A stretch of 64,000 nucleotides of DNA, taken from Parcubacteria group bacterium Gr01-1014_31 (GTDB taxonomy: Bacteria > Patescibacteriota > Patescibacteriia > Buchananbacterales > GWA2-38-13). The stretch covers positions 92,870 to 156,869 of the forward strand of contig VMFR01000002.1 of the NCBI GenBank assembly GCA_007376135.1, in the 5' to 3' direction. Positions 1-62,502 of the stretch are shown in pieces (positions within the stretch are counted from its first letter, which is position 1; the number at the start of each line of letters is the position of its first letter). The notes beneath the pieces are model-generated. The model ran no database searches and was not told the origin of the DNA. It saw only the letters and a list, made by a program, of their open reading frames with translations. The translations under genes were made by a program, and so were the position numbers.

Positions 1-86
1 ATCCACCAACGACTTGCCGTCGATTTTGGTGATATCAATGTGCTCAACGGGCTTGGCGAGCAACTCCTTTTTCGTGGGCTTGGGCA
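1..86 (-). CDS. partial hypothetical protein (N-terminus only; gene continues past window start)
   Basis: Reverse complement begins ATG at 84-86 and reads MPKPTKKELLAKPVEHIDITKIDGKSLVD. GC is host-like, unlike the adjacent low-GC island. No recognisable family from this fragment. Confidence 0.3.
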
Positions 87-115
87 TAAGAAATACTGTT
101 ATCTAGGCGTCATTG

Positions 116-619: not shown

Positions 620-971
620 GCTTCTTTTTCTTCACAAAGTCGATAAACCGAAGAATCTCCTCCTGATCCTGCTTAGAAAGATTCTTATCTGCACGTAAGG
701 CGAAATTAATATCTTGTTTCTCCTCCAAGCCCAAGAAAAATTTAATATCACGGTGTAAAAAATTGGAAATCTCTTCCAAATCCTCAGCGCGTACCTTTCT
801 TTCACCGGCTTCAATTAATGAAATTGCTGTGGCCGACTCAAATCCAATCACTTCTGCCAGGTCTTTCTGCGATTTTCCGGCAGATTCACGCGCCTCCTTT
901 ATTTTTGAGCCTATAAATTTATTTTTGTCGTCATGATTTTTCATATCAACAGTATGCCCCTCCTCAATCAT
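606..971 (-). CDS. XRE-family helix-turn-helix transcriptional regulator
   Basis: 121 aa. HTH_XRE-like segment KIKEARESAGKSQKDLAEVIGFESATAISLIEAGERK. Co-oriented with and overlapping the ImmA-like gene. Low GC. Confidence 0.75.
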   Translation of the reverse strand: MIEEGHTVDMKNHDDKNKFIGSKIKEARESAGKSQKDLAEVIGFESATAISLIEAGERKVRAEDLEEISNFLHRDIKFFLGLEEKQDINFALRADKNLSKQDQEEILRFIDFVKKKKHERS

Positions 972-1040
972 TCTGGCAAGGCATGGCTGCCAAAACGATT
1001 TGACAGGTTTATTTCAATTTGATAATATAAAAATGCCAAA

Positions 1041-1418
1041 GTGGAAATCTGCAATAAAGGTCGACTGATGAATACTTTGTGCAAGCAAAAACTAATCCAG
1101 TCAAGTCCTATGGTACACAAATACCAAGGCCCATTCCTATACAACGATGAGGTAATTAGCTCTTGGAATTCGAACGCAATCGGCGTCTATTACTGCGGCT
1201 ATCTAAACAGTCGCGAGGTGCTGATTACTCTCTACGTTGGTAAGGGAGCGGGCGAGGGAGGTATTCGTAATCGCCTTCTTGAACACCTACGGAATGAATA
1301 CTGGCCGGATGTTACCCATTTCGGTTACTGCGTCTGCGATACCAAGGAAGATGCCAATAATTTCGAGGCAGTCGAAATTGCGCGTCTAAAACCCAAATAC
1401 AACGTTCAAGGGAAATGA
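1041..1418 (+). CDS. GIY-YIG nuclease domain protein (stand-alone)
   Basis: 125 aa. GIY-like GVYYCGY, YIG-like LYVGKG, conserved Arg IRNRLLEHL, downstream Glu in EAVEIARL. About 40% GC in a 65% GC context. Confidence 0.5.
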   Translation: MEICNKGRLMNTLCKQKLIQSSPMVHKYQGPFLYNDEVISSWNSNAIGVYYCGYLNSREVLITLYVGKGAGEGGIRNRLLEHLRNEYWPDVTHFGYCVCDTKEDANNFEAVEIARLKPKYNVQGK

Positions 1419-1452
1419 AGTGAAACCAACATAAAATACGTTGAATGACAAC

Positions 1453-14197: not shown

Positions 14198-14869
14198 ATG
14201 CGTTCATCCCGTTCCCTCATCCTGGCTGCCGCGCTCATGGCTGCGGCGTTCTTCGCCGCGCCGGACGCCGCCAATGCCCAGATGCACTGCTGCTGCGACG
14301 TGGAGTTCGAACGCTGCGCCCCTTCCCCCATCATGCAGGGACAGCCGGGCGTTGCCGGATACCCGTGTCCGCCAGTCGGCGACGAAACGCTGACCCTCTG
14401 GCGCGCCTCCAACGACCCGGCGTACCAGACGTGCTCAGCCTGGGTCAACCCGAACGCCGCTGAATTCCGTACCGCCGCCGAGCAGGAGGCGCGCGAACGC
14501 AGCTGGCTGAAGCTGGTCATCGGCACCGAACTCATCCCCGATGCCTGTCGCACCGGCGATGCGAAGGGCTGCACGCTGTCCCACCTGCTGCAGGTCCTTG
14601 CCAACGTCGCGCGGGCGATGCTGGCGTTGCTGGGCAGCGCGGCGTTCGCGATGTTCGTCTACGGCGGGGTGGTCTTTCTGACCTCCCAGGGCAACCAGGA
14701 GCGGGTCACTACGGGCCGGCGCATCCTCACCAATGCCGTATTGGGCATTCTGGTGGTGCTGGTATCCTGGACGGCGGTCAACTTCGTAGTGGTCGCCCTC
14801 AGCCAAGGCCGGGGCGGATTTGGCCAAATGGCCAACATCTTTGGCAATCAATGGAACCGCGGTCCATAA
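14198..14869 (+). CDS. VirB2/TrbC-like pilin family protein (T4SS-pilin-like) with Cys-rich N-terminal extension; paralog 1 of 9
   Basis: 223 aa. Signal peptide ending ANAQ, a roughly 110-aa domain with 10 Cys (QMHCCCDVEFERC...), then the shared C-terminal hairpin ...FVYGGVVFLTSQGNQERVTTGRRILTNAVLGILVVLVSW. This aligns with the GG(F/Y)xWMTAxGNEE..KAK..I..A.IGL block of the following genes. Confidence 0.6.
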   Translation: MRSSRSLILAAALMAAAFFAAPDAANAQMHCCCDVEFERCAPSPIMQGQPGVAGYPCPPVGDETLTLWRASNDPAYQTCSAWVNPNAAEFRTAAEQEARERSWLKLVIGTELIPDACRTGDAKGCTLSHLLQVLANVARAMLALLGSAAFAMFVYGGVVFLTSQGNQERVTTGRRILTNAVLGILVVLVSWTAVNFVVVALSQGRGGFGQMANIFGNQWNRGP

Positions 14870-14895
14870 GGTGTGGATAACCGGTTTAAAATTTG

Positions 14896-14924
14896 TTGAC
14901 AGGTAGTGAAAAACCTTGTATAAT
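14896..14924 (+). promoter_or_regulatory. consensus sigma70-type promoter (TTGACA-17-TATAAT) for pilin paralog 2
   Basis: TTGACA at 14896-14901, exactly 17-nt spacer, TATAAT at 14919-14924. About 105 nt upstream of ATG 15030, which carries a strong SD (GGAAGGGGGTGA). Confidence 0.6.
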
Positions 14925-15029
14925 TACTGTGTTTTCCTTTGCATTTTGCTTGAAACATAGCAGAATAATGCGGCTGGAACCGGGCGGGTGACCGCTTGGC
15001 GCCGGCAGCACTCGGAAGGGGGTGAAACA

Positions 15030-15395
15030 ATGAAAAAAATTACTACAGGGATTGCTACGGCCGCGGGGCTGATCGCAGCACTGCCGGTCTTCGCCCAGCT
15101 CCCGGCGACGGTTAACCAGGGGTTAGCCTACTCGACGATCGTCGGCTGGGGTACCCAGGACCTTCGTACGACCATCATGCTCGTGATCAACATCATCATG
15201 GGCTTCCTGGGAATTATCGCCGTTATCATCATTCTCACCGGTGGATTCAAGTGGATGACCGCCGGCGGCAACGAGGAGAAGGTAGCGGAGTCCAAGAAGC
15301 TGATCATCGCTGGTATCGTTGGTTTGGCAATTATCTTTGGCGCCTACGCGATCGCGTCGTTCGTCATCAGTTCGCTGGTGAACGCCACGACCTAG
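15030..15395 (+). CDS. VirB2/TrbC-like pilin (T4SS-pilin family), probable major subunit; paralog 2
   Basis: 121 aa. Signal peptide ...ALPVFAQ, short mature N-terminus, TM1 IMGFLGIIAVIIILTGGFKWMTAGGNEEKVAESKKLIIAGIVGLAIIFGAYAIASFVI (TM2). Start moved to the internal MKK with a good SD. Own promoter and terminator. Confidence 0.7.
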   Translation: MKKITTGIATAAGLIAALPVFAQLPATVNQGLAYSTIVGWGTQDLRTTIMLVINIIMGFLGIIAVIIILTGGFKWMTAGGNEEKVAESKKLIIAGIVGLAIIFGAYAIASFVISSLVNATT

Positions 15396-15420
15396 TTCGC
15401 AAGACTCCACAGAGGCAAAG

Positions 15421-15445
15421 GGCCCCGCTCGGCGGGGTCTTTTGT
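15421..15445 (+). terminator. rho-independent terminator after pilin paralog 2
   Basis: GGCCCCGCTCGGCGGGGTC hairpin followed by TTTTGTT. Confidence 0.5.
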
Positions 15446-15481
15446 TACGCCCGGCCGGTGGCGTTCGGGCCGCTGCTGCGA

Positions 15482-15487
15482 TATAAT
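15482..15487 (+). promoter_or_regulatory. candidate -10 element (TATAAT) for the pilin 3-8 operon
   Basis: GCTGCGATATAATGG lies 20 nt upstream of ATG 15508. No good -35 was found, so support is weak. Confidence 0.3.
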
Positions 15488-15507
15488 GGGTTCATCACTT
15501 TTTCCCC

Positions 15508-15903
15508 ATGCGCCGCCGATCTGCCGCCATTGTTCTGACCCTCCTGCTGGGTGTTGCGCTGGCGACGCCGATTTCTGCGGCGTTGGCCCAGGGTGACGAC
15601 TACGGCCTGAACGAAACCTATACCGCCGCCACCGGGGAGCAACCGCCCGCGAACCCCGACCCCCTGCCTCAAACCCTTGGGCTCATCATCAACTGGACGC
15701 TCGGGCTGCTGGGCTTTGTTTTCCTGATGCTCATGATCTGGGCCGGCATCGGCTGGATGACGGCCGGCGGCAACGAGGAGAAGGTGACGAAAGCGAAAAC
15801 GATGATCAACGCTGCCATCGCCGGTATGGTCGTGGTCTTCATTTCCTACGCGCTGGCCGACGCTATCGTTGCCGCGCTGTCGGCGGCGTCCAATACCGGC
15901 TAG
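15508..15903 (+). CDS. VirB2/TrbC-like pilin family protein; paralog 3
   Basis: 131 aa. Signal peptide ...AALAQ. Conserved LMLMIWAGIGWMTAGGNEEKVTKAKTMINAAIAGMVVVFISYALA. The 30-nt core is nearly identical to paralog 2. Confidence 0.7.
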   Translation: MRRRSAAIVLTLLLGVALATPISAALAQGDDYGLNETYTAATGEQPPANPDPLPQTLGLIINWTLGLLGFVFLMLMIWAGIGWMTAGGNEEKVTKAKTMINAAIAGMVVVFISYALADAIVAALSAASNTG

Positions 15904-15911
15904 CTCTCCCT

Positions 15912-16319
15912 ATGCGCCCTCCCCGGCAACTCATTGCCCACACCGCCGCCGGCTTGCTGGTGTTCCCCGGCGCCGCCTTGGCCCAGAACGAATATCGCGG
16001 CATCGGCAAGGTCATCAACAAAGCGATGCGCGACACGGCGCTGTTCGCGGGGTTCATCCCCGAGAGCGGCCAGCCGCGCAACTTCATGCAGATCATGGGC
16101 GCCTACACCAACGGCATCATCACTTTTCTCGGCCTCATTTTCCTGGTGCTCATCATCTGGGCCGGCTTCAAGTGGATGACGGCCGCCGGCAATGAAGACC
16201 AGGTCACCAAGGCGCGCGGCTACATCAAGAATGCCGCCATCGGGCTGACCATCATCCTGGTGGCGCGGATGATCACCTACCTGCTGCTGGAGATCATCCA
16301 GCCCGCCGTCACGCCATAG
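15912..16319 (+). CDS. VirB2/TrbC-like pilin family protein; paralog 4
   Basis: 135 aa. ...AALAQ signal. LVLIIWAGFKWMTAAGNEDQVTKARGYIKNAAIGLTIILVARMITY. 8-nt gap from paralog 3, no SD. Confidence 0.7.
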   Translation: MRPPRQLIAHTAAGLLVFPGAALAQNEYRGIGKVINKAMRDTALFAGFIPESGQPRNFMQIMGAYTNGIITFLGLIFLVLIIWAGFKWMTAAGNEDQVTKARGYIKNAAIGLTIILVARMITYLLLEIIQPAVTP

Positions 16320-16322
16320 CCT

Positions 16323-16727
16323 ATGCACGCAAAAATCCCCTCGCTTCCCCGCTGGCTGGCTGCCGCCGTGGCGCTGGCGCCAAGCGCGGCGCTGGCACAA
16401 ACGACCCGCAGCGCGGGCGGGCTGTTCGCTAACATCCGCTCCAACATTGAAACATCGGGTATCATGCCGGGCACGGCCACCGACGCACAGCAGGTCATCG
16501 GTGGCATCATCACCGGCGTCATCGGGCTGCTGGGCGTCATTTTCTTCATCCTCATTCTCTACGGCGGGTACCTGTGGATGACGGCGCGCGGCAATGAGCA
16601 GCAGATAGAAAAAGCCAAGGACATCATCAAATCCTCCAGCATCGGGCTGGCGGTCGTGCTGGGCGCCTACCTCATCACGTTCATCGTGGTGCAGCTGCTC
16701 ATCAGCCAGACGCTAACGTCGCTGTAG
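16323..16727 (+). CDS. VirB2/TrbC-like pilin family protein; paralog 5
   Basis: 134 aa. ...AALAQ signal. ILILYGGYLWMTARGNEQQIEKAKDIIKSSSIGLAVVLGAYLITF. 3-nt gap from paralog 4. Confidence 0.7.
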   Translation: MHAKIPSLPRWLAAAVALAPSAALAQTTRSAGGLFANIRSNIETSGIMPGTATDAQQVIGGIITGVIGLLGVIFFILILYGGYLWMTARGNEQQIEKAKDIIKSSSIGLAVVLGAYLITFIVVQLLISQTLTSL

Positions 16728-16731
16728 ACCT

Positions 16732-17148
16732 ATGCGCCGTAATTTCTCTACCTGGGCGTGGACGGCGGCGGGAATCGCAGCGGGCTTGCCCATGCCGGTG
16801 CTGGCGCAGACGCGCAACACTATTATGGGCCGCCTCATCAACACGGCGTCCATGTTTGGCCCGTTCCAAACCATCGACAATGAGCCGGGCGCAGGACTGC
16901 GGCAGGCGGCGCGTATCATCGGCCTTATCATCGGCAGCTTGCTCGCATTCTTGGGCATCGTGTTCATGCTCCTCATGATAACGTCGGGCATCCGTTGGAT
17001 GACGGCGCGCGGCAATGAGACGGAAATTGAAAAAGCCAAAGAAACCATCAAGAGCGCCGCCATCGGGCTGCTGGTGGTCGTGCTCTCCTACGCCTTTGTG
17101 ACCCTCATCAGCCGGATGGTGGTAGACACCGGCCTGCTACGCGGATAG
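16732..17148 (+). CDS. VirB2/TrbC-like pilin family protein; paralog 6
   Basis: 138 aa. ...PVLAQ signal. LLMITSGIRWMTARGNETEIEKAKETIKSAAIGLLVVVLSYAFVTL. Confidence 0.7.
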   Translation: MRRNFSTWAWTAAGIAAGLPMPVLAQTRNTIMGRLINTASMFGPFQTIDNEPGAGLRQAARIIGLIIGSLLAFLGIVFMLLMITSGIRWMTARGNETEIEKAKETIKSAAIGLLVVVLSYAFVTLISRMVVDTGLLRG

Positions 17149-17159
17149 TTTTTCTCCCT

Positions 17160-17543
17160 ATGTCGCATCGCTTTGCTTCGTGGACGAAAGGGCTGGCGGC
17201 CGCTCTGGCGCTCTTGCCCTACCGCGTGCTGGCGCAGGCCCCGCCGCTGTTCGGGCCGGGCAGCCTGGTGAACGAAACCTGCGAAGGCGCCGGGTTCAAC
17301 TGCAGCGAGCGCGACGAGACGTTCTTTGCCGAGGCGCTGGGCTCCGTCGTGTTCGCGCTGCTGTCGTTCACCGGCCTGGTATTCACCGCGCTCATCCTGT
17401 ACGGCGGGTATCACTGGATGCTGGCGCGCGGCAACGAGTCCGAGATCGACAAAGCCAAGTCCATCATCCGTTCGGCCATCATCGGGCTGGTCGTCACCCT
17501 GGCGTCCTACTCGGTGTGGATCGCCATCTCCTACTTTATCTAA
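17160..17543 (+). CDS. VirB2/TrbC-like pilin family protein; paralog 7
   Basis: 127 aa. ...RVLAQ signal. Mature N-terminus has CEGAGFNC. ALILYGGYHWMLARGNESEIDKAKSIIRSAIIGLVVTLASY. Confidence 0.7.
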   Translation: MSHRFASWTKGLAAALALLPYRVLAQAPPLFGPGSLVNETCEGAGFNCSERDETFFAEALGSVVFALLSFTGLVFTALILYGGYHWMLARGNESEIDKAKSIIRSAIIGLVVTLASYSVWIAISYFI

Positions 17544-17548
17544 CCACG

Positions 17549-17986
17549 ATGCGCCGCTTGACCTCCCGCGTGCTTCAAATCTTGGCCCCGCTGGTCGTAT
17601 TGTTCGCCACGGCGGCGCAGGCGCAAACCGGGCGCTTGCTGGGTGGCGGCCTGAGCGACCGGATGCGCGGCATCGCGGGGGTGTTTGCCCGCAACGTCGG
17701 GCTGCAGGAAACGCCGCTGTCGTTCGTCGTCGCGCGGGTCATCTTCATGTTCCTGGCCATCCTCGGCATCATTTTCGTCGGCCTCATCACCTACGCGGGC
17801 TACCACTGGCTGACCGCGCGCGGCAACGAGGAAAAGGTGCGCAAAGCCCAGGATACCCTGCGGCAGGCGACCTGGGGGCTCATCATTGTGCTGGCCGCCT
17901 ACTCCATTTCGTACTTCATCCTGGCGTACCTGCTGGGCGAATTCGGCACCGCCCCGCCGCCCCCGCTGACTGGCGGCGCAACATAA
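17549..17986 (+). CDS. VirB2/TrbC-like pilin family protein; paralog 8
   Basis: 145 aa from MRRLTSRVLQ... with ...AAQAQ signal. GLITYAGYHWLTARGNEEKVRKAQDTLRQATWGLIIVLAAYSISY. Pro-rich C-tail. The long track ORF 17180..17986 is an out-of-frame overlap of paralog 7; the real start is ATG 17549. Confidence 0.65.
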   Translation: MRRLTSRVLQILAPLVVLFATAAQAQTGRLLGGGLSDRMRGIAGVFARNVGLQETPLSFVVARVIFMFLAILGIIFVGLITYAGYHWLTARGNEEKVRKAQDTLRQATWGLIIVLAAYSISYFILAYLLGEFGTAPPPPLTGGAT

Positions 17987-18007
17987 TACAACCCGGCAAA
18001 AAGAAGA

Positions 18008-18040
18008 ACGGCGCAAAAGCATTGCCTTTGCGCCGTTTTC
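18008..18040. terminator. bidirectional terminator between the pilin operon and the convergent lipoprotein gene
   Basis: GGCGCAAAAGCATTGCCTTTGCGCC hairpin with T-run on the plus strand and A-run (T-run on the minus strand). Confidence 0.5.
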
Positions 18041-18066
18041 GAATCGAAGAACGATCCGCTTGCCCA

Positions 18067-18648
18067 CTACTTGGGCTTTACGCACGCCGCCCACTTCACG
18101 GTGCGCACCACGGTGGTTTCGTTGACCGTCTCGAAAACCACGTTCCCGCTGGCAGTCTCGATGAACCGGAAAAGATATTTATACCCCTCCGGTAACGAAC
18201 AGGCGACCGTGGTCGGCTCCACCTTGGGATTCGGCGCAGGAGCGAGGTTGACCACTTCCACGGTTGGACCGTTCAAGTTGATCCGACCTCGGTGATCGAC
18301 CTGGAAAACCTGGCAGACCAGGGCAAGACCGGTGAAATTACTGATGCCCCCATCCACCAAAATCATGGTGGGCTCCTCAGGCTTGGTGGCCTTGATCTGC
18401 TCGAGCTTGCGCTCGGCCAAATCGACGTCGCCCTCCTTGGCGTTGATGACCGCAGTTCGCGCGGCCGTCAGTTGGGAATTGTACTCCATCAACTCCGCCG
18501 CACGCATCGCCGTGATCGGGTCCGTTTCGCCAAACCACGCGTGAACCACGATCTTGGGATCGCGCTTGTCCTCCAACAACACATCGGAGGAACGGCAGCC
18601 GAACGCAGCGGCGAGCGGGAGGACAACCAACATCATCCGGTACGACAT
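18067..18648 (-). CDS. hypothetical lipoprotein
   Basis: 193 aa from MSYRMMLVVLPLAAAFGC (lipobox-like AFGC). No family recognised. The longer ORF to 18783 lacks a signal-peptide context. ATG complement at 18646-18648. Confidence 0.45.
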   Translation of the reverse strand: MSYRMMLVVLPLAAAFGCRSSDVLLEDKRDPKIVVHAWFGETDPITAMRAAELMEYNSQLTAARTAVINAKEGDVDLAERKLEQIKATKPEEPTMILVDGGISNFTGLALVCQVFQVDHRGRINLNGPTVEVVNLAPAPNPKVEPTTVACSLPEGYKYLFRFIETASGNVVFETVNETTVVRTVKWAACVKPK

Positions 18649-18915
18649 GTAAAGACTCCTGCCAGAAACTGGCGTTGTGGGACGCATTGTCCAAGGTTCA
18701 ACCGTATTAAGCCCCGGTGAAGGCTCCACAGCAGTGGAGAAAAGCCAAACATTGGCTTTTGACTTAAGATGTAATGATACCACAAATTGAAACTATTGTC
18801 AATATAATTAGCAATATTTGGCTTATTTTAGATGATTATAATCAATACTATATTACGCCCGCCAATGCTAATTCCCCTTGTTTCAGCCAACCCGGGAATC
18901 CTGTATAATGAACGT

Positions 18916-19025
18916 GGTATGCCCGGTAGTACAATGGATATACTGGGCAGAAGAGCGGTGCGGCAGTAATTAATTACGCTGGAACGCGAACACCAGTAAA
19001 CAACCATTGTCCTGCCGGGTATGCC
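18916..19025 (+). promoter_or_regulatory. conserved inverted-repeat 5' leader element (copy C); 3' arm contains the start codon of pilin paralog 9
   Basis: 5' arm GGTATGCCCGGTAGTACAATGG (18916-18937) and 3' arm CCATTGTCCTGCCGGGTATGCC (19004-19025) form a 22-bp stem (with G-U pairs) around an AT-rich core. An extended -10 TGTATAAT (18902-18909) is 6 nt upstream. The same architecture occurs at 55591-55691 and 60110-60224. Confidence 0.5.
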
Positions 19026-19431
19026 CATCGCAGAGCGCGTCGCCGTCAAACTCGCCCAGCTCTCCCCCGATATTCGGGAGTCGCAAGGGCCGCTGTGGCG
19101 CGCGATAAAGAACCAGTACACCCCGTTCAACCTGTTCTTCGGCCCGCCCTCCGACCCGCGCGTCGTGGCGGCGCTGGTCATCAAGGGGTTCATGTCGCTG
19201 CTGGGCATCTTGTTTTTGCTCTACGTGGTGTACGCGGGGTTCATGTGGATGACGGCCAACGGCGACGAGGAAAGGATCCGCAAGGCGAAATCCACCATCA
19301 CCACCGGCGCATTCGGGGTGCTGGTCATCCTGGCGGCGTACTCCATCGCCCAGTTCATCACCACGGCGTTCGGCTGCGCGACCGCCACCTACGGCGAGTG
19401 GTGCCTTTTCTTCAACAACCTGACGTGGTAG
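19021..19431 (+). CDS. divergent VirB2/TrbC-like pilin family protein without N-terminal signal peptide; paralog 9
   Basis: 136 aa. The conserved hairpin LLYVVYAGFMWMTANGDEERIRKAKSTITTGAFGVLVILAAYSIA is present, but the N-terminus MPIAERVAVKLAQLSPDIRES is not a signal peptide. C-terminal CATATYGEWC. Confidence 0.55.
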   Translation: MPIAERVAVKLAQLSPDIRESQGPLWRAIKNQYTPFNLFFGPPSDPRVVAALVIKGFMSLLGILFLLYVVYAGFMWMTANGDEERIRKAKSTITTGAFGVLVILAAYSIAQFITTAFGCATATYGEWCLFFNNLTW

Positions 19432-33680: not shown

Positions 33681-34181
33681 GTGGTACGGGGTGAACGCAC
33701 CGTGCTGGGGATCGACCCGGGGCTGGCAACGACCGGCTTCGGCGTGCTGACGGTTGCCCCCGGCACCATCTCAGCCCAAGCCTTCGGCGTCATCCGAACC
33801 CCGGCGCACCGCCCGGATACCGAGCGCCTCGTTTCTATCCAGCGCGAACTCGAAGCGCTGATTTCTCGCTACCGACCCGACCTCGTGGCCGTCGAAAAAC
33901 TTTTCTTCAACACCAACACCACCACCGCGATGGCCGTCTCGCAGGCGCGCGGGGCGGTACTGGCGGTCTGCGGTGCGGCGCACCTGCCCCTCCGGGAGTG
34001 CACGCCGCTCGAGGTCAAGCAGGCGGTGACCGGCTACGGCCGCGCCGACAAAGGCCAGATGCAGCGGATGGTCGCGCTGCTGCTGAAACTCAAGGAAATC
34101 CCGCGCCCGGATGATGCGGCCGACGCGCTGGCCGTGGCCATCTGCGGCGCGCAGACCAAAGTTTGGGGAGAGAACCGCTGA
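33681..34181 (+). CDS. ruvC: crossover junction endodeoxyribonuclease RuvC
   Basis: 166 aa. VLGIDPGLATTGFGVL catalytic Asp region and overall RuvC length. Confidence 0.85.
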   Translation: MVRGERTVLGIDPGLATTGFGVLTVAPGTISAQAFGVIRTPAHRPDTERLVSIQRELEALISRYRPDLVAVEKLFFNTNTTTAMAVSQARGAVLAVCGAAHLPLRECTPLEVKQAVTGYGRADKGQMQRMVALLLKLKEIPRPDDAADALAVAICGAQTKVWGENR

Positions 34182-34185
34182 ATCT

Positions 34186-35244
34186 ATGTCGTACCGCATC
34201 GCCTTGCTCGCCACGCCTTGGGAAGCGGTACCGCCCCCGAAGTACGGCGGCACGGAACTGATCGTCGCCAACCTCGCGGATGAACTCACCCGCCGCGGCC
34301 ATACCGTCACGGTGTTTGCCACCGGCGACTCGCGTCCCGCTGGCCGCCTGGCGGCGGTGTTCCCCCGCGCGCTCTACCGCGACGGCGTCCCCTGGAACGA
34401 CACGCTGCGCCCGCTGCAACACGTCGCTGCCTGTTTCACCCGCGCCCGCGAGTTCGACCTCATCCACAACCATGCCAACTACTTCGGCCTGCTGTTCGCG
34501 AACCTGGTGCCAACCCCGGTGGTCACCACCTACCATGGCGACTTTGTGACCGCGGAAAAGATCCCGGAAAAACGGCACCTGCTGGAGGCGTTCCGTCGCG
34601 CTCCGTTCGTTGCCATCAGCTGGCGCCAACGCGCCCTGGCAAAAACCCGCCTCAATTTCGTCGGTACCGTTCACAACGGCATCGCCATTGAACAGTTCCC
34701 TTTTTCGCCGCGGCCCGGCAACTACCTGTGCTGGCTAGGACGCATCACCGAAAAAAAAGGGATCCTTGAAGCCATCACGGTCGCCCGTCGGCTGCGCCTG
34801 CCGCTGAAGATCGGCGCCAAGATCGACCCGGTCGACCGCGCGTTCTTCAAACACCGCGTGGAGCGCCGCATCGACGGCAAACATATCCAATACCTGGGAG
34901 AGCTGGACCACCGCGGAAAAACCCGGCTGCTGAAAAGGGCGCTCGCGCTCTTGAACCCCATCACCTGGGAGGAACCATTCGGCCTGGTCATGGCGGAGGC
35001 GATGGCCTGCGGCACGCCGGTTATCGCCTTCCCCCGCGGCGCGGCTCCCGAGATCGTTGCCGATGGAGTGACGGGCTACCTGCCCACCACGGTGGACCGC
35101 ATGGTGGCCGCGGTCAAACGCATCCACCATATCCGGCGTAGCGCCTGCCGTGCCCGCGCAGCGCGATACTTCAGCCGGGAAGCGATGACTGACGGCTACG
35201 AGAAGATCTACGCGCGAGTACTGCGACGGGAAAAAGGCCGATAA
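34186..35244 (+). CDS. GT4-family glycosyltransferase (retaining, GT-B fold)
   Basis: 352 aa from MSYRIALLATPWEAVPPPKYGGTELIV. C-terminal EX7E-type region EEPFGLVMAEAMACGTPVIAF. Start placed at ATG 34186, just after the ruvC stop. Confidence 0.8.
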   Translation: MSYRIALLATPWEAVPPPKYGGTELIVANLADELTRRGHTVTVFATGDSRPAGRLAAVFPRALYRDGVPWNDTLRPLQHVAACFTRAREFDLIHNHANYFGLLFANLVPTPVVTTYHGDFVTAEKIPEKRHLLEAFRRAPFVAISWRQRALAKTRLNFVGTVHNGIAIEQFPFSPRPGNYLCWLGRITEKKGILEAITVARRLRLPLKIGAKIDPVDRAFFKHRVERRIDGKHIQYLGELDHRGKTRLLKRALALLNPITWEEPFGLVMAEAMACGTPVIAFPRGAAPEIVADGVTGYLPTTVDRMVAAVKRIHHIRRSACRARAARYFSREAMTDGYEKIYARVLRREKGR

Positions 35245-35291
35245 CTCAACACCCTGTTCCCCTCCGCCTAATTCCTATCTTTCACCGCGAT

Positions 35292-36509
35292 ATGCCCCAG
35301 CCGCTGAGAATACTATTTTTGCACCACTTCCCGTTGTGGGGCTGCGGCAGCGGCACGTTCGTGCGCAACCTCGCTATCCGATTGTCCGGCAAACAAGAGA
35401 TCGCCATCGCCTGCCCGGAAACCCGCACGGTCGAGGGCGTCAAACTCTACCCCATCAAGCTGCCGTTCTTCGCCTCGTTCACCGGCCATCCGGAACACCC
35501 GAACAGCAAACTCTATGCGGAGCTATCGCCCGGGGAGATCACGCAGCTGTACCGGGCGTTCCTGCACTACGCGGTGGACGCGGTGGAGAATTTCCGGCCC
35601 CACATCATCCACGCCAACCACGCCGGCGTGCTGACGTGGGCGGCGCGCTACCTCTACGCCATCTACGGCATCCCGTACCTGGTCACCATCCACGGCACCG
35701 ATCTGCACAACATCGACCTCGACCGCCGCTACTGGCACCTGTCGCGCGACGCCGTCAAAGCCGCGCGGCAGATCACGTGCGTGTCCGGCGATACGCGGGC
35801 ATGGTTCTACCGCATCTTCGGGGGCGAGGACAAGCTTCGCGCCAAGATCCGCACCATCCCCGCGGGCATCAACTTGGCCGATTACGACCGGACCCTGAGC
35901 ACCGACGACCTGGACGCCAAGTACAAACTGACCGGACGTCCGGTGGTCATGTTCGCCGGCAAGCTGACGCCCTACAAGGGAGTGCGCTACCTGGTCAAAG
36001 CAGCGCGCTGGATCAACGGCGAGGTGGTCATCATCGGCGATGGGCCGGAACTCCACACGCTCACGGACCTCGCGCGCGACCTGAAGGTCTCGAACGTGCG
36101 GTTCTTGGGTCACTTCGGAAAAAAGGATGACCTCTGGCTGCACAAATTCTATCAGCGGGCAGACGTGTTCGTGGCGCCGTCGGTCTGGGATGAGCCGCTG
36201 GGCATGGTCATCCTGGAAGCCATGGCCTACGGCACGCCGGTGGTGGTCACCCGCAAGGGCGGCATCCCGCTGGCGGTGAAAGACGGCGTCAACGGCCGCT
36301 TCATCAAGCCGCGCAACAGCCACGACATCGCCGACAAGGTCAATGCGCTCTTGGCCGACCCCGCGCGGCGGCGGCAACTGGGCGAACAGGCCCGGCAGGT
36401 GGTGGAGGAGAAATTCACCTGGGACAAGATCGCCGAGAAGTTCCTACAGATCTACCGGGCGCGGGCCGCGGGAGGCAACGGAAAGAACGGCAAAACCGAT
36501 CGCACCTAG
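35292..36509 (+). CDS. GT4-family glycosyltransferase
   Basis: 405 aa. DEPLGMVILEAMAYGTPVVVT and GT-B fold pattern. Distinct subfamily from its four neighbours. Confidence 0.8.
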   Translation: MPQPLRILFLHHFPLWGCGSGTFVRNLAIRLSGKQEIAIACPETRTVEGVKLYPIKLPFFASFTGHPEHPNSKLYAELSPGEITQLYRAFLHYAVDAVENFRPHIIHANHAGVLTWAARYLYAIYGIPYLVTIHGTDLHNIDLDRRYWHLSRDAVKAARQITCVSGDTRAWFYRIFGGEDKLRAKIRTIPAGINLADYDRTLSTDDLDAKYKLTGRPVVMFAGKLTPYKGVRYLVKAARWINGEVVIIGDGPELHTLTDLARDLKVSNVRFLGHFGKKDDLWLHKFYQRADVFVAPSVWDEPLGMVILEAMAYGTPVVVTRKGGIPLAVKDGVNGRFIKPRNSHDIADKVNALLADPARRRQLGEQARQVVEEKFTWDKIAEKFLQIYRARAAGGNGKNGKTDRT

Positions 36510-36598
36510 CCCGGACAACATTGGGGAGAAACGACGGCCGTCAAGGCCGTCTTTTTCGCGCCTTCGACCGGTAAATAATGGTATACTGAAGCCGTCCT

Positions 36599-37657: not shown

Positions 37658-37659
37658 AT

Positions 37660-39720: not shown

Positions 39721-39731
39721 CGCCAACGCCT

Positions 39732-40865: not shown

Positions 40866-40911
40866 AAGATTTCTTTTACGCTTTTCGCTTTGCATTTTTC
40901 GCTGACTTTCT

Positions 40912-52583: not shown

Positions 52584-52721
52584 ATGCCGAAACGGACGTA
52601 CCAACCGAAACGCCGCCGCCGCCAGCGCGTGCACGGATTCCGCCGCCGCATGCGGAGCAGCAATGGCCGCAACGTGCTCAAGCGCCGACGGACCCGGGGG
52701 CGCCATCGCTTGACGGTATAG
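52584..52721 (+). CDS. rpmH: 50S ribosomal protein L34
   Basis: 45 aa. [25 protein letters not shown] is near-universal L34 sequence. Start at the internal ATG of the 67-aa ORF. Confidence 0.85.
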
Positions 52722-55535: not shown

Positions 55536-55564
55536 TTGACAGCAAAAACGTTTTCGCGTATGCT
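55536..55564 (+). promoter_or_regulatory. candidate sigma70-type promoter for rpsT (TTGACA-17-TATGCT)
   Basis: TTGACA at 55536-55541, 17-nt spacer, TATGCT at 55559-55564. About 125 nt upstream of the rpsT ATG. Confidence 0.4.
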
Positions 55565-55590
55565 GTCGACTATTCTTACCGCCTCTGCCC

Positions 55591-55691
55591 GGTAGGACAA
55601 CGGGCTGGCGAGGTAGAGGTATAAACCCGACTGAGAATTATAGCGTCGTACCGCGAAGATTACACATTTGACCGTTGTCCTACCGGGTATG
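55591..55691 (+). promoter_or_regulatory. conserved inverted-repeat 5' leader element (copy A); 3' arm ends in the rpsT start codon
   Basis: GGTAGGACAACGG (55591-55603) pairs perfectly with CCGTTGTCCTACC (55672-55684), followed by GGGTATGCC with ATG at 55689. A 68-nt lower-GC core lies between the arms. Confidence 0.5.
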
Positions 55692-55955
55692 CCGATCAAA
55701 CATTCCGCCGTCCGTGATTTGCGGGTCAGCCGCAAGCGTGCCAGCGCCAACCTAAAGGTTCGCGAGAACCTGCGCTTTTTGCTGCGCCGGTGCCGTCAGC
55801 AGTTCGTCGCCAAGGATGCCGCCAAGGCAACGGCCGCCGTGGCCGCCGCGGTGTCGGCCTTTGACCGCGCTGCCCGTGCCGGTATCGTCAAGGCTGGCCA
55901 CGCCGCGCGGCACAAATCGCGTCTGATGTTGCGGCTCAACCGGCTCGGACGCTAG
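55689..55955 (+). CDS. rpsT: 30S ribosomal protein S20
   Basis: 88 aa. MPIKHSAVRDLRVSRKRASANLKVRENLRF...AGHAARHKSRLMLRLNRL matches S20. Start at the internal ATG of the 95-aa ORF. Confidence 0.85.
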   Translation: MPIKHSAVRDLRVSRKRASANLKVRENLRFLLRRCRQQFVAKDAAKATAAVAAAVSAFDRAARAGIVKAGHAARHKSRLMLRLNRLGR

Positions 55956-60109: not shown

Positions 60110-60224
60110 GGTATGCTCGGTAGGACAACGGATCTCACGGAGCAAGGCATACGATACACGGATTAATTATTTTTTGGTCCTAAACGCAATTACTCCATTC
60201 GGCCGTTGTACTACCGGGTATGCA
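60110..60224 (+). promoter_or_regulatory. conserved inverted-repeat 5' leader element (copy B); 3' arm contains the smc start codon
   Basis: GGTATGCTCGGTAGGACAACGG (60110-60131) and CCGTTGTACTACCGGGTATGCA (60203-60224, ATG at 60220). The ACAACGG/CCGTTGT pair carries a compensatory change relative to copy C (ACAATGG/CCATTGT). Confidence 0.5.
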
Positions 60225-62502
60225 TTTAGAATCCCTGGAGATCACCGGTTTCAAGTCATTCGCCACTACCACCGCGCTGAAATTCCCGGCTGCGGCTGCT
60301 GGTACTCGTGGCGGCATTACCGCCATCGTCGGGCCCAACGGTTCGGGCAAGTCCAACATCACCGACGGCATCCGCTGGGCGCTGGGCGAGCAGTCGCTGA
60401 AAACCCTGCGCGGCAAGAAGGCCGAGGATGTCATCTTTTCCGGCTCGGACAAGAAGGCGCGGCTGGGGTTGGCCGAAGTATCGCTGGTGCTCAACAACGA
60501 GGACCGCGCGATGCCCGTGGATTTCCCCGAAGTCGTCATCACCCGGCGGCTGTACCGCAACGGCGAGGGAGAATATCTTTTGAACAAGCAGCCCATTCGG
60601 CTGACCGACGCGGTGCTGCTGATGGCCAAAGCCAATTTCGGCCAGAAGAGCTACTCCGTCATCGGCCAGGGCATGGTGGATGCCATCCTCAACGCCACTC
60701 CCCAAGAGCGCAAGGAATTCTTCGAGGAGGCCGCCGGCGTCAAGCAATACCAGCTCAAGCGCGAGCAGTCGGTGCGGAAACTGCAGCACACTTGGGAGAA
60801 CATCAGGCAGGCGGAAGCGGTCATCGAAGAGATCGAGCCGCGGCTGCGTTCCCTGCAGCGGCAGGTGAAAAAGCTCGAACAGCGCGAGCAGCTCATCCAA
60901 GAATTGTCCGGCAAGCAGCGCGAGTACTATGGCCGCGCGTGGCGTGCCATGCAGGAGGAGGAGTGTGTGGTCAAACCGCGCGTGCAGGAGCTCACGGGAC
61001 AGCTGCAGGAGCAGACCCGCCAGCTGCAAGCGGTCCAACAGCAGCTTGACCGGTTGGAGCAGGAGGACCGTCGGACCGAGGTATTCAACCGGCTGCAACA
61101 GCGCTACCAGAAAGCCGTGGAGGCCAAGTCCCAGCTGCGGGAAACCCAACTTTTGCTGCGCAACAAGATAGAATTGGCCAAGACCAAGGCCGCGCTTTCC
61201 GCCATTCCCGTGCCGCTGCCCGAGATCGTTACCCGCCTGGAGCGCGTGGCCGCGACCTACGATGATTTTTTACAGCAGCTGTCCGCCGCCCGGAAGCCCG
61301 AGGACCTCGCGCGGCTGCAGGAGCGCGCCAAGACCGTGAGCGGAACGTTGCGCGAGCTCTTGGCCGAGCTGCAGCACGGGAAGAAGCAACAGACGGCTGC
61401 CGTGGACCCGCAGATGGTCGCCGACCTGGAGCGCGCGAGCGGCAAACTGGAAGCGCTCGAAGCGGAGGTTGTTTCCGCGCAGCGGGAGATCACCGAGTTC
61501 AACACCACCGAGGAGGCCAAGCGCGGGAAATTTTTCGACCTCCAGCGCCAGTTCCAAGCCCGGCAGCAGGAATTGAATGCGACCGCCGCCCAGCTGTCCG
61601 AGTTGCGAGTGGCGATGGCCAAATTGGACACGCGGCGCGAAGCATTGGAAGAAGAGGTGAAGACCGAGCTGCAGTCCACCGCGTGGCTGCACGACTACCA
61701 GCCCGCCGGCGCGGGCGAGGACCCGCAGCTGAGCTCAAGCGTCCACCAGTTGAAGCGCCAGCTGGAGTTCATCGGCGGCATTGAGCCCCAGACCGTCAGT
61801 GAGTACCACCAGACCAAAGAGCGTTACGATTTTTTGAGCACCCAGGTTGCCGATCTGCGCACGGCGCTGGAGCAGCTGCGCACGGTCATTGAGGAGTTGG
61901 ATGGAACCATTCACCGGCAGTTCCACGACTCGTTCCGCCAGATCAACCACGAATTCGGGCGCTACTTCAAGGTATTGTTCAACGGCGGAAAAGCGGAACT
62001 GGACGCCATCACCCAGGAGGTGGCGGAGGCCGAGGAGGAAAAGCAGGTGGAGGCTGCCGCCGAAGGCGTGGAGGTTGCCGATGAAGCCGACCAGGAGGAA
62101 GAGGAGATTAGGCGGCTCTTGCGCGGTCGCACCGGCAAAGTGGTTGTTGGCGTGGAGATCCGCGCCACGCCCCCGGGCAAGAAGCTGGTGTCGGTGACCA
62201 TGCTGTCGGGCGGCGAGCGGGCGCTCACGTCCATCGCGCTCATTTCCGCCATCATTGCCAACAACCCCTCGCCCTTCGTGGTGCTCGATGAGGTGGATGC
62301 CGCTCTGGACGAGGCCAATTCCGAACGGTTTGGCGCCATCCTGGAGGAGCTGTCCGGCAAGACCCAGTTCATCGTCATCACCCACAACCGCGCCACCATG
62401 CACCGCGCGGCGGTTCTCTATGGCGTGACCATGGGCGACGACGGCGTGTCGCGTATCCTTTCGCTGCAGCTGGAGGAGGGGGAGAAATTGGTGAATCGGT
62501 AG
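60220..62502 (+). CDS. smc: chromosome segregation protein SMC (short form)
   Basis: 760 aa. N-terminal Walker A GPNGSGKSNI. C-terminal signature LSGGERALTSIAL and Walker B VLDEVDAALD. Long coiled-coil middle. Located upstream of rpsP and the KH-protein gene, as smc is in many bacteria. Shorter than canonical SMC, with no obvious hinge. Confidence 0.7.
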   Translation: MHLESLEITGFKSFATTTALKFPAAAAGTRGGITAIVGPNGSGKSNITDGIRWALGEQSLKTLRGKKAEDVIFSGSDKKARLGLAEVSLVLNNEDRAMPVDFPEVVITRRLYRNGEGEYLLNKQPIRLTDAVLLMAKANFGQKSYSVIGQGMVDAILNATPQERKEFFEEAAGVKQYQLKREQSVRKLQHTWENIRQAEAVIEEIEPRLRSLQRQVKKLEQREQLIQELSGKQREYYGRAWRAMQEEECVVKPRVQELTGQLQEQTRQLQAVQQQLDRLEQEDRRTEVFNRLQQRYQKAVEAKSQLRETQLLLRNKIELAKTKAALSAIPVPLPEIVTRLERVAATYDDFLQQLSAARKPEDLARLQERAKTVSGTLRELLAELQHGKKQQTAAVDPQMVADLERASGKLEALEAEVVSAQREITEFNTTEEAKRGKFFDLQRQFQARQQELNATAAQLSELRVAMAKLDTRREALEEEVKTELQSTAWLHDYQPAGAGEDPQLSSSVHQLKRQLEFIGGIEPQTVSEYHQTKERYDFLSTQVADLRTALEQLRTVIEELDGTIHRQFHDSFRQINHEFGRYFKVLFNGGKAELDAITQEVAEAEEEKQVEAAAEGVEVADEADQEEEEIRRLLRGRTGKVVVGVEIRATPPGKKLVSVTMLSGGERALTSIALISAIIANNPSPFVVLDEVDAALDEANSERFGAILEELSGKTQFIVITHNRATMHRAAVLYGVTMGDDGVSRILSLQLEEGEKLVNR

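What the first reader, a model, noticed from the sequence alone, without database searches (positions are those of the whole stretch)
18902..19025. Conserved long-stem 5' leader element whose 3' arm ends in the start codon (copy C, before the signal-less pilin paralog 9)
Three unrelated genes (rpsT, smc and pilin paralog 9) are each preceded by the same architecture. A 5' arm (G)GTATGC-N3-GTAG(G/T)ACAA(C/T)GG, a 65-85-nt lower-GC core (ATTAATTA-like in copies B and C), and a 3' arm CC(G/A)TTGT(C/A)CT(A/G)CCGGGTATGC(C/A). The ATG inside the 3' arm is the gene's start codon. In copy C an extended -10 (TGTATAAT) sits 6 nt before the 5' arm, so the transcript would start essentially at the arm. 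At the RNA level the arms form an 18-22-bp stem that includes G-U pairs, which would be mismatches in DNA. Between copies the ACAATGG/CCATTGT pair has changed to ACAACGG/CCGTTGT in a compensatory fashion. This suggests a structured cis-regulatory leader that sequesters the initiation region (translational control, thermosensing, or a protein/ligand-gated switch). The alternative is a MITE/ERIC-like repeat that has captured promoter-proximal positions. In copies B and C the 5' arm contains an in-frame AUG opening 17- and 16-codon uORFs that stop in the AT-rich core. Paralog 9 is also the only pilin copy lacking a signal peptide.
Basis: seen in the sequence. Interest (0 to 1): 0.75.

Follow-up and report, generated by a model that had tools for sequence, protein, structure and literature searches.

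The report
Mobile hairpin repeat inserted at start codons
The "conserved leader" is a roughly 100-bp hairpin-forming mobile repeat of one poorly sampled groundwater Patescibacteria (CPR) lineage that inserts into the motif (GG)TATGC, which is this lineage's usual start-codon context, so every copy found sits exactly on a gene's start codon, including essential genes.

Summary
The window holds three copies, in front of pilin paralog 9, rpsT and smc. Each has 91%-identical inverted arms, a diverged 66-71-nt core, and the gene's ATG 4 nt after the 3' arm core.

A two-arm search that did not include the ATG found seven more copies in a related MAG (E14). All 10 copies (9 independent genes) have the ATG at the same offset and the same orientation.

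It is not a conserved regulatory leader. The E14 smc start, in 93.6%-identical colinear DNA, is an empty site: the window carries a 107-bp insertion flanked by a perfect 7-bp direct repeat, GGTATGC. More distant relatives lack the element at smc, rpsT, the membrane-protein gene, tpiA and fba. Covariation is no better than shuffled controls. Rfam has no match.

The start-codon association is largely explained by target choice. 20 of 61 window genes start with TATGC, against 6 of 267 internal ATGs, and Shine-Dalgarno motifs are almost absent.

Best reading: a site-specific MITE/REPIN-like element whose target duplication regenerates the start codon. How essential genes stay translated with the AUG in a -42 to -52 kcal/mol stem is unresolved. 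The retained upstream AUG and its short uORF is my favoured, untested answer.

The parts
18902..18909 (+). Extended -10-like TGTATAAT upstream of copy C. It belongs to the host, not to the element.
   Evidence: Read from the sequence. It did not pass the two-hexamer promoter scan because there is no -35.
18916..18922 (+). Copy C, upstream direct repeat GGTATGC. It holds the retained original-context ATG (18919-18921), which opens a 16-codon uORF (18919-18969).
   Evidence: Identical to the downstream repeat at 19018-24.
18923..18937 (+). Copy C left inverted arm, CCGGTAGTACAATGG.
18938..19003 (+). Copy C variable core: 66 nt, GC 0.47 against 0.61 for the window.
19004..19017 (+). Copy C right inverted arm, CCATTGTCCTGCCG.
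19018..19024 (+). Copy C downstream direct repeat GGTATGC. It contains the start codon (19021-19023) of pilin paralog 9.
19021..19431 (+). Pilin paralog 9 CDS (136 aa, T4SS_pilin PF18895).
55536..55564 (+). rpsT promoter TTGACA-17-TATGCT. It belongs to the host and is conserved in relatives that lack the element.
55586..55688 (+). Copy A (rpsT). Left arm TGCCCGGTAGGACAACGG at 55586-55603, core 55604-55671, right arm CCGTTGTCCTACCGGGT at 55672-55688. The 5' ATG has degenerated to CTG.
   Evidence: 110.9 bits.
55689..55955 (+). rpsT CDS (88 aa). Its start codon directly follows the right arm.
   Evidence: PF01649.
60110..60116 (+). Copy B upstream direct repeat GGTATGC. Its ATG (60113-60115) opens a 17-codon uORF (60113-60166).
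60117..60216 (+). Copy B element body, 100 bp. Left arm TCGGTAGGACAACGG at 60117-60131, core 60132-60202, right arm CCGTTGTACTACCG at 60203-60216. It is absent from the orthologous E14 site.
60217..60223 (+). Copy B downstream direct repeat GGTATGC, with the smc start codon at 60220-60222.
60220..62502 (+). smc CDS (760 aa).

Best explanation
The element is a non-autonomous, hairpin-forming mobile DNA repeat, MITE/REPIN-like. It has about 100 bp of body, 15-19-bp terminal inverted arms (YATG)CCCGGTAGKACAAYGG ... CCRTTGTMCTRCCGGG(YATGC), and a 66-71-bp fast-diverging core. It is found only in one narrow Patescibacteria lineage.

Shown:
- It inserts site-specifically and in one orientation into (GG)TATGC and leaves that motif at both ends.
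- TATGC is the preferred start-codon context of this almost Shine-Dalgarno-free lineage, and the genome is about 88% coding. Tolerated targets are therefore mostly start codons.
- The duplication regenerates an intact ATG fused to the gene at the 3' end. The original ATG, with its original promoter and short leader, stays at the 5' end.
- The long RNA stem and the 'start codon inside the 3' arm' follow from the inverted arms plus the target duplication.

Inferred and untested: how translation survives. My preferred mechanism is that ribosomes still load on the retained 5' AUG in its native context. In the tpiA-fba case they arrive by translating the upstream gene. They then translate 7-28 codons through the 5' arm, which keeps the stem open, terminate in the core, and allow initiation or re-initiation at the freed 3' AUG 17-81 nt downstream.

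The enzyme that moves the element is unknown.
For: (1) Insertion polymorphism. E14 contig JAUSGZ010000025 is colinear with window 50033-63593 at 88-94% identity. The alignment breaks exactly at smc. E14 reads ...ctatctGGTATGCatttagaa. The window reads ...ctatctGGTATGC[100 bp]GGTATGCatttagaa. Two more distant smc loci are also empty, so the window copy is a derived insertion.

(2) Other empty sites. rpsT loci of relatives at 83, 70 and 69% protein identity keep the same promoter and a 23-31-nt leader but have no element. The membrane-gene, tpiA and fba junctions are empty in two relatives.

(3) ATG-blind census. The pattern GGTAGKACAAYGG-N55-85-CCRTTGTMCTRCC found seven more copies, all in the E14 MAG. 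All 10 copies have an ATG at +4 that opens an 88-760-aa ORF: rpsT, smc, tpiA, fba, DJ-1-like, permease-like, glycosyltransferase-like, a small membrane protein and the pilin. The model scores the gene-sense orientation at 73-111 bits and the reverse at 32-55.

(4) Target equals start context. TATGC is found at 20 of 61 first ATGs against 6 of 267 internal in-frame ATGs. T at -1 is found in 39 of 61 against 20 of 267. SD-like motifs occur in 3 of 61. Relatives show the same T-ATG context. No unoccupied non-coding GGTATGC remains in the window.

(5) Mobile-element signature. Among paralogs the arms are 91% identical and the cores 41%. Between orthologous copies the arms are not better conserved than the cores: 5 of 21 substitutions fall in the arms (my count from the alignments printed).

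(6) No covariation above shuffles and no Rfam family.

(7) For the uORF idea. 8 of 10 copies keep the 5' ATG. In E14 the tpiA ORF runs 13 codons into the fba element, giving 268 aa against 255-260 in relatives. The rpsT promoter lies upstream of the element and no promoter-like site lies inside any of the window's three copies, so the hairpin is transcribed as 5' UTR.
Against: - No transposase, RAYT or recombinase was found. Only about 64 kb of this genome and about 60 kb of E14 could be read, so the mobilising enzyme and the true copy number are unknown.
- The length of the duplication is ambiguous (4-7 bp), because the target is the same at every site. Older copies share only YATG(C) between their two ends.
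- 9 of 9 independent copies on start codons is still somewhat more than target distribution alone predicts. I estimate that about 0.6 of tolerated TATGC sites are start codons, which gives P of about 0.02. Some selection or extra targeting may therefore act.
- No degenerate or solo copies were seen in about 110 kb. Orthologous copies are at least as conserved as third codon positions: 89-96% against 75-95%. Both are compatible with some host-level constraint.
- The uORF-coupling step is weakened by the rpsT copies (5' CTG) and one tpiA variant (5' AGG), which lack the upstream AUG yet precede essential genes.
Confidence: 0.72

Rival explanations
1. The element is a host-selected cis-regulatory leader RNA (translational repressor, thermosensor, or mRNA-stabilising 5' stem-loop). 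It may have been born from a repeat and is now kept because it tunes expression of the genes it precedes by burying the AUG.
For: - The stems are very stable and include the AUG.
- The opening cost rises by about 10 kcal/mol relative to empty sites.
- All copies sit at start codons in one orientation.
- Old copies (rpsT, tpiA, fba, membrane-protein gene) are retained across strains at 88-94% identity, with arms intact and no decayed copies elsewhere.
- Some substitutions are RNA-compatible: U:G wobbles and two U:A double changes.
Against: - It is absent at the same genes in relatives and polymorphic at smc.
- The genes served share no functional theme: ribosomal protein, SMC, glycolysis, pilin, permease.
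- Covariation equals the shuffled control.
- A mismatch is kept in the middle of the stem in 11 of 14 copies.
- The arms are conserved in sequence rather than only in pairing, and within orthologs they are no more conserved than the cores.
- No Rfam match.
Confidence: 0.13
2. The element is a REPIN, that is, two inverted REP units forming a hairpin. It is moved by a single-copy RAYT (IS200/IS605-like HUH tyrosine transposase) acting on single-stranded hairpin DNA. It inserts next to a fixed short target without a true duplication, and its right end happens to end in the same TATGC.
For: - The architecture matches published REPINs: two highly conserved units of about 16-20 nt in inverted orientation, a less conserved spacer (71 bp is the commonest in P. 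fluorescens GI REPINs), no two spacers identical, and a hairpin overall (PMC3337134).
- The arms contain GTAG, which from my own knowledge is the conserved head of REPs.
- Fixed orientation relative to an asymmetric target, and seamless empty sites, are typical of HUH single-strand transposition.
- A conserved unpaired position in the stem would suit structure-specific recognition.
Against: - The 3' arm has no palindrome of its own, and the 5' arm has one (GCCCG...CGGGC) only in some copies.
- No RAYT gene was seen in the DNA available.
- The membrane-gene copy has C before the ATG at both ends (GCATGC/GCATGC). That fits a duplicated target better than a fixed element end.
- REPINs are normally scattered in extragenic space, often at 3' ends of genes, not on start codons.
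Confidence: 0.2
3. The element is a small site-specific recombination element. When its ends are joined, they form a lox/dif-like site: 15-bp inverted binding arms around a 6-7-bp asymmetric overlap, ...CTACCGG-GTATGC-CCGGTAG.... A tyrosine recombinase integrates it into chromosomal sites that share the overlap GTATGC, which duplicates the overlap at both junctions.
For: - It explains why the flanking repeat has the same sequence at every site and why the orientation is fixed.
- The smc empty site resembles the element's right end beyond the repeat: CTATCTGGTATGC against CTACCGGGTATGC, 10 of 13.
- The two copies with perfect flanking repeats (smc, shown to be recent; pilin) both have the full GGTATGC at both ends.
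Against: - This is inference from sequence geometry only.
- No recombinase gene or circular form was observed.
- The flank similarity is marginal (P of about 0.04), and other copies do not show it.
- The arms do not fit integron attC core sites: GTTGTCC does not match GTTRRRY, as recalled from my own knowledge.
Confidence: 0.12

Closest known systems
REPINs (REP doublets forming hairpins) mobilised by RAYTs, e.g. Pseudomonas fluorescens SBW25 GI-GIII (Bertels and Rainey; PMC3337134, PMC3116915)
   Same: Both have two short, highly conserved inverted units separated by a less conserved spacer of about 70 bp that still folds into a hairpin. Both are about 100-110 bp in total, non-coding, present in many copies with no two spacers alike, and persist vertically within one lineage.
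   Different: Here every copy sits on a start codon, in one orientation, and is flanked by a repeated (GG)TATGC. The 3' arm is not itself a palindrome. No RAYT was seen. At least 9 copies were found, against hundreds for REPINs. The host is a CPR bacterium with a small genome.
Bacterial MITEs in transcribed regions: Correia/NEMIS elements of Neisseria, ERIC/IRU of enterobacteria (from my own knowledge)
   Same: All are 100-150-bp elements with terminal inverted repeats and a short target duplication. All are co-transcribed with neighbouring genes, fold into long RNA hairpins, and can alter expression of the adjacent gene.
   Different: Those elements duplicate TA and lie at variable distances from genes, often downstream. 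This one uses a 4-7-bp target that contains the ATG and lands exactly on the initiation codon. No sequence similarity to them was tested or expected.
Rickettsia palindromic elements (RPE), selfish palindromes inside protein-coding genes (Ogata et al. 2000; from my own knowledge)
   Same: Both are selfish hairpin repeats that survive in a reduced, gene-dense genome by landing where essential genes still work.
   Different: RPEs are inserted in frame and translated as extra peptide segments. This element is not a multiple of 3 (102-107 bp), carries stop codons, and sits in front of the ORF while regenerating its start codon.
Structured 5' leaders that occlude the initiation region (RNA thermometers, ribosomal-protein operator leaders)
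   Same: In both, the AUG and its upstream flank are paired in a stable stem, and a large calculated opening penalty is predicted.
   Different: Those leaders are conserved at orthologous genes and show covariation or a ligand- or protein-binding core. This element is missing from orthologs, is polymorphic, has a diverged core and shows no covariation.

Membership tests
MITE (non-autonomous TIR element) | Terminal inverted repeats | tested here: met
   The arms are 15-19 bp, 91% identical among 9 independent copies, and 94% of stem cells are paired.
MITE (non-autonomous TIR element) | Flanking target-site duplication, shown by comparing a filled site with an empty site | tested here: met
   At smc, E14 is empty (GGTATGC once) and the window is filled (GGTATGC on both sides of 100 bp). 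The exact length, 4-7 bp, is ambiguous because the target is constant.
MITE (non-autonomous TIR element) | Small, non-coding, multicopy | tested here: met
   The elements are 102-107 bp. uORFs of 7-28 codons have no conserved frame. There are 3 copies in the window and 7 in E14.
MITE (non-autonomous TIR element) | An autonomous partner with the same ends that encodes the transposase | not testable with these tools
   Only fragments of the genomes were available. No solo arms or long-spaced arm pairs occur in the held loci, and there is no arm match in viral contigs.
REPIN / RAYT system | Two inverted conserved units, a less conserved spacer, and an overall hairpin | tested here: met
   Definition taken from PMC3337134.
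REPIN / RAYT system | Each REP unit contains its own imperfect palindrome | tested here: not met
   The 3' unit (..TTGACCGTTGTCCTACCGGG) has no internal palindrome. The 5' unit has GCCCG..CGGGC only in about 6 of 10 copies (read from the alignment).
REPIN / RAYT system | A cognate single-copy RAYT gene flanked by the repeats | not testable with these tools
Only 10 window ORFs were scanned with Pfam, and none was a transposase.
Curated cis-regulatory RNA families (Rfam 15) | A match to a covariance model | tested here: not met
   There is no hit at gathering threshold in the window. Only chance-level hits elsewhere appear at E<=5 in a 2-kb stretch holding three copies.
Selected structured leader (thermometer or operator type) | Conserved at orthologous genes, with base-pair covariation | tested here: not met
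   The element is absent at orthologous rpsT, smc, tpiA, fba and membrane-protein genes. Covariation score is 0.107 against 0.095 shuffled, and paired cells are 93.9% against 94.0%.
Integron attC site | R''/R' core sites RYYYAAC / GTTRRRY and adjacency to cassette arrays or intI | tested here: not met
   The arms read GGACAAC / GTTGTCC, which do not fit the consensus as I recall it. The flanking genes are core housekeeping genes in conserved synteny.

The most novel reading that the evidence does not exclude
This is a mobile element that has evolved to target the host's start-codon consensus. By duplicating the start codon it builds in its own rescue. The original AUG keeps its native initiation context and drives a short uORF through the 5' arm, or the initiating ribosome shunts across the closed hairpin from one AUG to the identical AUG at its base. 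Either way the insertion would be nearly invisible to translation, even in essential genes of an SD-less, roughly 1-Mb CPR genome. That would be a new 'safe-haven' strategy for selfish DNA, and a natural system for studying SD-independent initiation and re-initiation in CPR bacteria.
Probability: 0.25. Interest if true: 0.8.

Novelty: new variant of a known kind. Interest (0 to 1): 0.55.

Why it matters
Small hairpin repeats (MITEs, REPINs) are known. I found no description of one that lands only on start codons (literature searches), and none of one that sits in front of rpsT, smc, tpiA and fba in an ultra-compact CPR genome.

If the target specificity holds genome-wide, it shows how selfish DNA can persist where there is almost no intergenic space.

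It also exposes an unusual initiation context in this lineage: T at -1, C at +4, a pyrimidine-rich leader and no Shine-Dalgarno motif. The filled and empty alleles of the same gene (smc) are a ready-made natural experiment on how a buried AUG is translated.

On the practical side, gene callers already mis-place starts inside the element. One example is fba, called 21 nt upstream at a GTG inside the arm.

Tried and rejected
- **Rfam.** Gathering threshold on the window and a permissive search on a three-copy stretch gave nothing relevant.
- **Weaker copies in the window.** Candidates found by motif (4369, 59207, 41287) are ordinary coding sequence. The covariance model with filters off finds no further copies; the best other hit scores 11 bits.
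- **Leaderless-promoter or internal-promoter idea.** No sigma-70-like site lies inside any of the window's three copies on either strand. TTGACC just before the 3' arm has no -10 at a workable spacing.
- **Conserved leader peptide.** uORFs vary from 7 to 28 codons, lie in all three frames relative to the gene, and are absent in the rpsT copies.
- **Read-through fusion.** Stops in every core exclude it.
- **Metagenome and genome scans.** Apart from this lineage, only arms-only chance hairpins turned up (Bacteroidetes L002/L010, L008/L011, L013; 28-37 bits). The L002 hairpin sits at the 3' end of a gene.
- **Viral contigs.** No arm match.
- **SMC homolog search.** It did not return the E14 ortholog. 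The ortholog was reached through the rpsT contig instead.
- **Apparent unoccupied non-coding GGTATGC sites.** The sites at 439 and 25167 proved to lie in coding sequence that my crude gene caller had missed.
- **Integron attC and Xer/dif analogies.** Considered, but kept only as a low-confidence rival.

Full report

Yes. The window holds three copies of one architecture, all on the + strand.

- Copy C: arm cores 18925-18937 and 19004-19016, start codon 19021.
- Copy A (rpsT): arm cores 55591-55603 and 55672-55684, start codon 55689.
- Copy B (smc): arm cores 60119-60131 and 60203-60215, start codon 60220.

In what follows, "+4" or "4 nt after the arm" is the offset of the ATG from the end of the 3' arm core, and "C at +4" is the base directly after the ATG.

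The exact arm motif occurs nowhere else in the 64 kb. Each copy folds into a 17-20-bp outer stem of -42 to -52 kcal/mol, with z from -3.7 to -6.2 against shuffles. A covariance model built from the family scores the three copies at 81-111 bits, and the next best hit in the window scores 11 bits.

The ATG 4 nt after each 3' arm core opens the pilin-9 ORF (136 aa, PF18895), rpsT (88 aa) and smc (760 aa).

Two details need correcting.
- In copy A the upstream GTATGC is the -10 of the rpsT promoter TTGACA-17-TATGCT (55536-55564). It is not part of the arm.
- The single compensatory change in copy C does not amount to covariation (section 4).

**2. How widespread is it, and is it tied to start codons?**

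I searched one genome per GTDB species with a two-arm pattern that deliberately left out the ATG: GGTAGKACAAYGG-N55-85-CCRTTGTMCTRCC. Apart from one unrelated hairpin, all hits came from a single MAG, 'bacterium E14_metabat.bin.16' (GCA_030648715.1), with seven copies on five contigs.

In all 10 copies (9 independent genes, since rpsT is orthologous) an ATG lies at +4 and opens a real ORF. The genes are rpsT, smc, tpiA, class II fba, a DJ-1/PfpI-like protein, a permease-like protein, a large membrane glycosyltransferase-like protein, a small membrane protein (PF06695) and the pilin.

The orientation is always the same. The model scores 73-111 bits in gene sense and 32-55 bits in reverse.

The JGI metagenome scan added only near-identical orthologs from one sample, 3300025323. 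Other hits share only the arms at 28-37 bits and are unrelated. One of them lies at the 3' end of a Bacteroidetes gene.

SMC and TIM homologs place the organism in the Patescibacteria/CPR. Its close relatives come from groundwater-type samples.

**3. It is an insertion, not a conserved leader.**

The E14 contig that carries rpsT is colinear with window 50033-63593 at 88-94% identity. The alignment breaks exactly at smc.
- E14 reads ...ccctatctGGTATGCatttagaa.
- The window reads ...ccctatctGGTATGC-[100 bp]-GGTATGCatttagaa.

This is a 107-bp insertion with a perfect 7-bp direct repeat. Two more distant smc loci are also empty, so the filled state is derived and recent.

At rpsT, relatives with 83, 70 and 69% protein identity keep the same promoter and a 23-31-nt leader that runs straight into ATGCC, with no element. 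In the membrane-gene/tpiA/fba cluster, E14 and a strain about 90% identical to it carry three elements within 1.7 kb. Two relatives at about 70% TIM identity have 4-16-nt junctions or simple leaders instead.

Among paralogs the arms are 91% identical and the cores only 41%. Between orthologous copies the arms are not better conserved than the cores: 5 of 21 substitutions fall in the arms, by my count from the alignments printed. Whole elements (89-96% identical) evolve about like, or slightly more slowly than, neighbouring third codon positions (75-95%).

Conserved ends, free cores and no extra in-situ constraint on the ends are what a family shaped by a transposition machinery looks like. A family shaped by a host RNA function would look different.

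**4. RNA-structure evidence.**

On 14 distinct sequences, 93.9% of stem cells are paired, but shuffled controls give 94.0%. Two pairs show double changes, against 1.5 expected. The covariation score is 0.107 against 0.095, reached by 27 of 500 shuffles.

The K/M position in the middle of the stem is a U.C or G.A mismatch in 11 of 14 sequences. It flips between G and T in three of four orthologous comparisons. Rfam has no matching family.

The stem is therefore real as a consequence of the inverted arms, but there is no evidence that pairing as such is selected.

**5. Why start codons?**

This lineage has a peculiar initiation context.

| Feature | 61 first ATGs | 267 internal in-frame ATGs |
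|---|---|---|
| T at -1 | 39 | 20 |
| C at +4 | 30 | 76 |
| Full TATGC | 20 | 6 |

Only 3 of the 61 first ATGs have an SD-like motif upstream, and the leaders are short and pyrimidine-rich. E14 and more distant relatives show the same T-ATG context.

The motif duplicated by the element, (GG)TATGC, is thus the preferred start context. The genome is about 88% coding, and a 102-107-bp insertion inside an ORF would be destructive. Tolerated TATGC sites are therefore mostly start codons. I count about 21 start-codon sites against about 12 other non-coding sites in the window. No unoccupied non-coding GGTATGC remains.

Target specificity plus purifying selection thus explains most of the association. 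Nine of nine is still a little more than expected (P of about 0.02 by my rough estimate), so some extra targeting or benefit cannot be excluded. An asymmetric target also explains the fixed orientation.

**6. How does it work?**

Shown:
- It is a site-specific insertion that leaves the target at both ends.
- The 3' copy supplies the gene's ATG.
- The 5' copy keeps the original promoter and leader context.
- At rpsT the element lies downstream of the promoter, so it is transcribed, and no promoter-like site lies inside the window's copies.

Calculated: opening -12..+13 around the AUG costs 13.6-26.5 kcal/mol in filled sites and 4.2-15.6 in empty ones. This penalty should cripple ordinary initiation. 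Yet rpsT, smc, tpiA and fba carry the element, so something must relieve it.

Inferred, and my preferred answer at about 0.3 confidence: ribosomes load on the retained 5' AUG, which is present in 8 of 10 copies. They translate 7-28 codons through the 5' arm and stop in the core, 17-81 nt before the real AUG. This holds the stem open and allows initiation or re-initiation downstream. In the tpiA-fba case the upstream gene plays this part: the tpiA ORF runs 13 codons into the element.

Against this, the rpsT copies (CTG) and one tpiA variant (AGG) lack the 5' AUG. Alternatives are looping-out of the closed hairpin between leader and AUG, RNase III-type processing, or simply tolerated low expression.

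The mobilising enzyme is unknown. A DDE transposase with a 4-7-bp duplication, a RAYT/HUH enzyme acting on hairpin DNA, and a tyrosine recombinase using a lox-like joined-end site all fit parts of the data.

**7. Comparison with known systems.**

The architecture is closest to REPINs: two conserved inverted units, a variable spacer of about 70 bp, and a hairpin (PMC3337134). It also resembles transcribed bacterial MITEs such as Correia and ERIC.

MITE criteria are met for inverted ends, target duplication, size, copy number and polymorphism. The autonomous partner could not be tested.

REPIN membership fails one tested criterion, because the 3' unit is not itself palindromic, and the RAYT gene could not be tested.

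The element is not an RPE, because it is out of frame and carries stops. It is not an attC site, because the core sites do not fit. It is not any Rfam leader.

**8. Verdict.**

The finding is real. What is new is the target: a hairpin repeat that sits only on start codons, including those of essential genes, in a CPR lineage with an SD-less T-ATG-C initiation context.

I rate it a new variant of a known kind, with interest 0.55.

Noticed in passing
window, all predicted gene starts (e.g. 6662-, 8847-, 11943+, 15912+, 35292+, 40912+): The start-codon context is unusual. T at -1 occurs in 39 of 61 genes, C at +4 in 30 of 61, and TATGC in 20 of 61, against 6 of 267 internal ATGs. Upstream regions are pyrimidine-rich and only 3 of 61 have an SD-like motif. 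Relatives show the same T-ATG context.
   Followed up: partly
L006 2745-2790 (minus strand) and L020 2236-2276: In E14 and the strain about 90% identical to it, the tpiA ORF has no stop of its own before the fba element. It runs 13 codons into the element's 5' arm, giving 268 aa against 255-260 aa in relatives. Deleting the element would fuse tpiA and fba in frame.
   Followed up: partly
L015 2200-2343; L025 3465-3558; L024 1-80 and 858-1032: Relatives that lack this element carry other, different hairpin or repeat insertions at the same kinds of junction. Examples are a roughly 150-nt imperfect hairpin between the rpsT promoter and the ATG, and a 94-nt spacer with GTAGG..CCTAC-like arms before fba. 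Intergenic hairpin repeats seem common in this clade.
   Followed up: partly
L020 2321 (gene call) against the ATG at 2342; window 55668: In-frame TTG or GTG codons at the top of the 3' arm (..TTGACCGTTGTCCTACCGGGTATG) lead gene callers and longest-ORF rules to place starts 21 nt upstream, inside the element.
   Followed up: no
window 14198-19431: This is a tandem array of nine small T4SS-type pilin paralogs (repeat family D1, spacing about 400-500 bp). The ninth (19021-19431) is separated from the rest by an oppositely oriented 238-aa ORF and an AT-rich spacer. By eye it lacks the N-terminal signal-like segment of the others.
   Followed up: partly
window 34100-40900: This stretch holds several paralogous genes of about 380-400 aa, probably glycosyltransferases, that share repeat families D2, D3, D5 and D6.
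   Followed up: no
window 50806-54193 (L018 780-4155): This is the replication-origin neighbourhood: dnaA on the minus strand next to rpmH-rnpA-yidD-yidC on the plus strand. Synteny with E14 is conserved. The non-coding gap is about 52198-52757.
   Followed up: no
window 54200-54241: A perfect 25-nt overlapping palindrome (CCATAAAGAAAACACCCGCGGCCGCGGGTGTTTTCTTTATGG) lies between convergent genes. It looks like a bidirectional terminator.
   Followed up: no
window 1-1420: This is a low-GC segment (GC3 0.41-0.50 against about 0.8 elsewhere). It carries an HTH_3 protein (606-971, minus strand) and, downstream of it on the same strand, an ORF with an HEIGH metalloprotease motif, ImmA/IrrE-like by eye. 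It may be a foreign or prophage-derived module.
   Followed up: no
L002 1332-1412 (same contig as L010): A Bacteroidetes MAG has an 81-nt hairpin with identical 13-nt arm cores and an ATGC 4 nt after the arm. It lies at the 3' end of a 177-aa gene next to a terminator, is single-copy and has an unrelated core (37 bits). I judged it a chance or arms-only match.
   Followed up: yes
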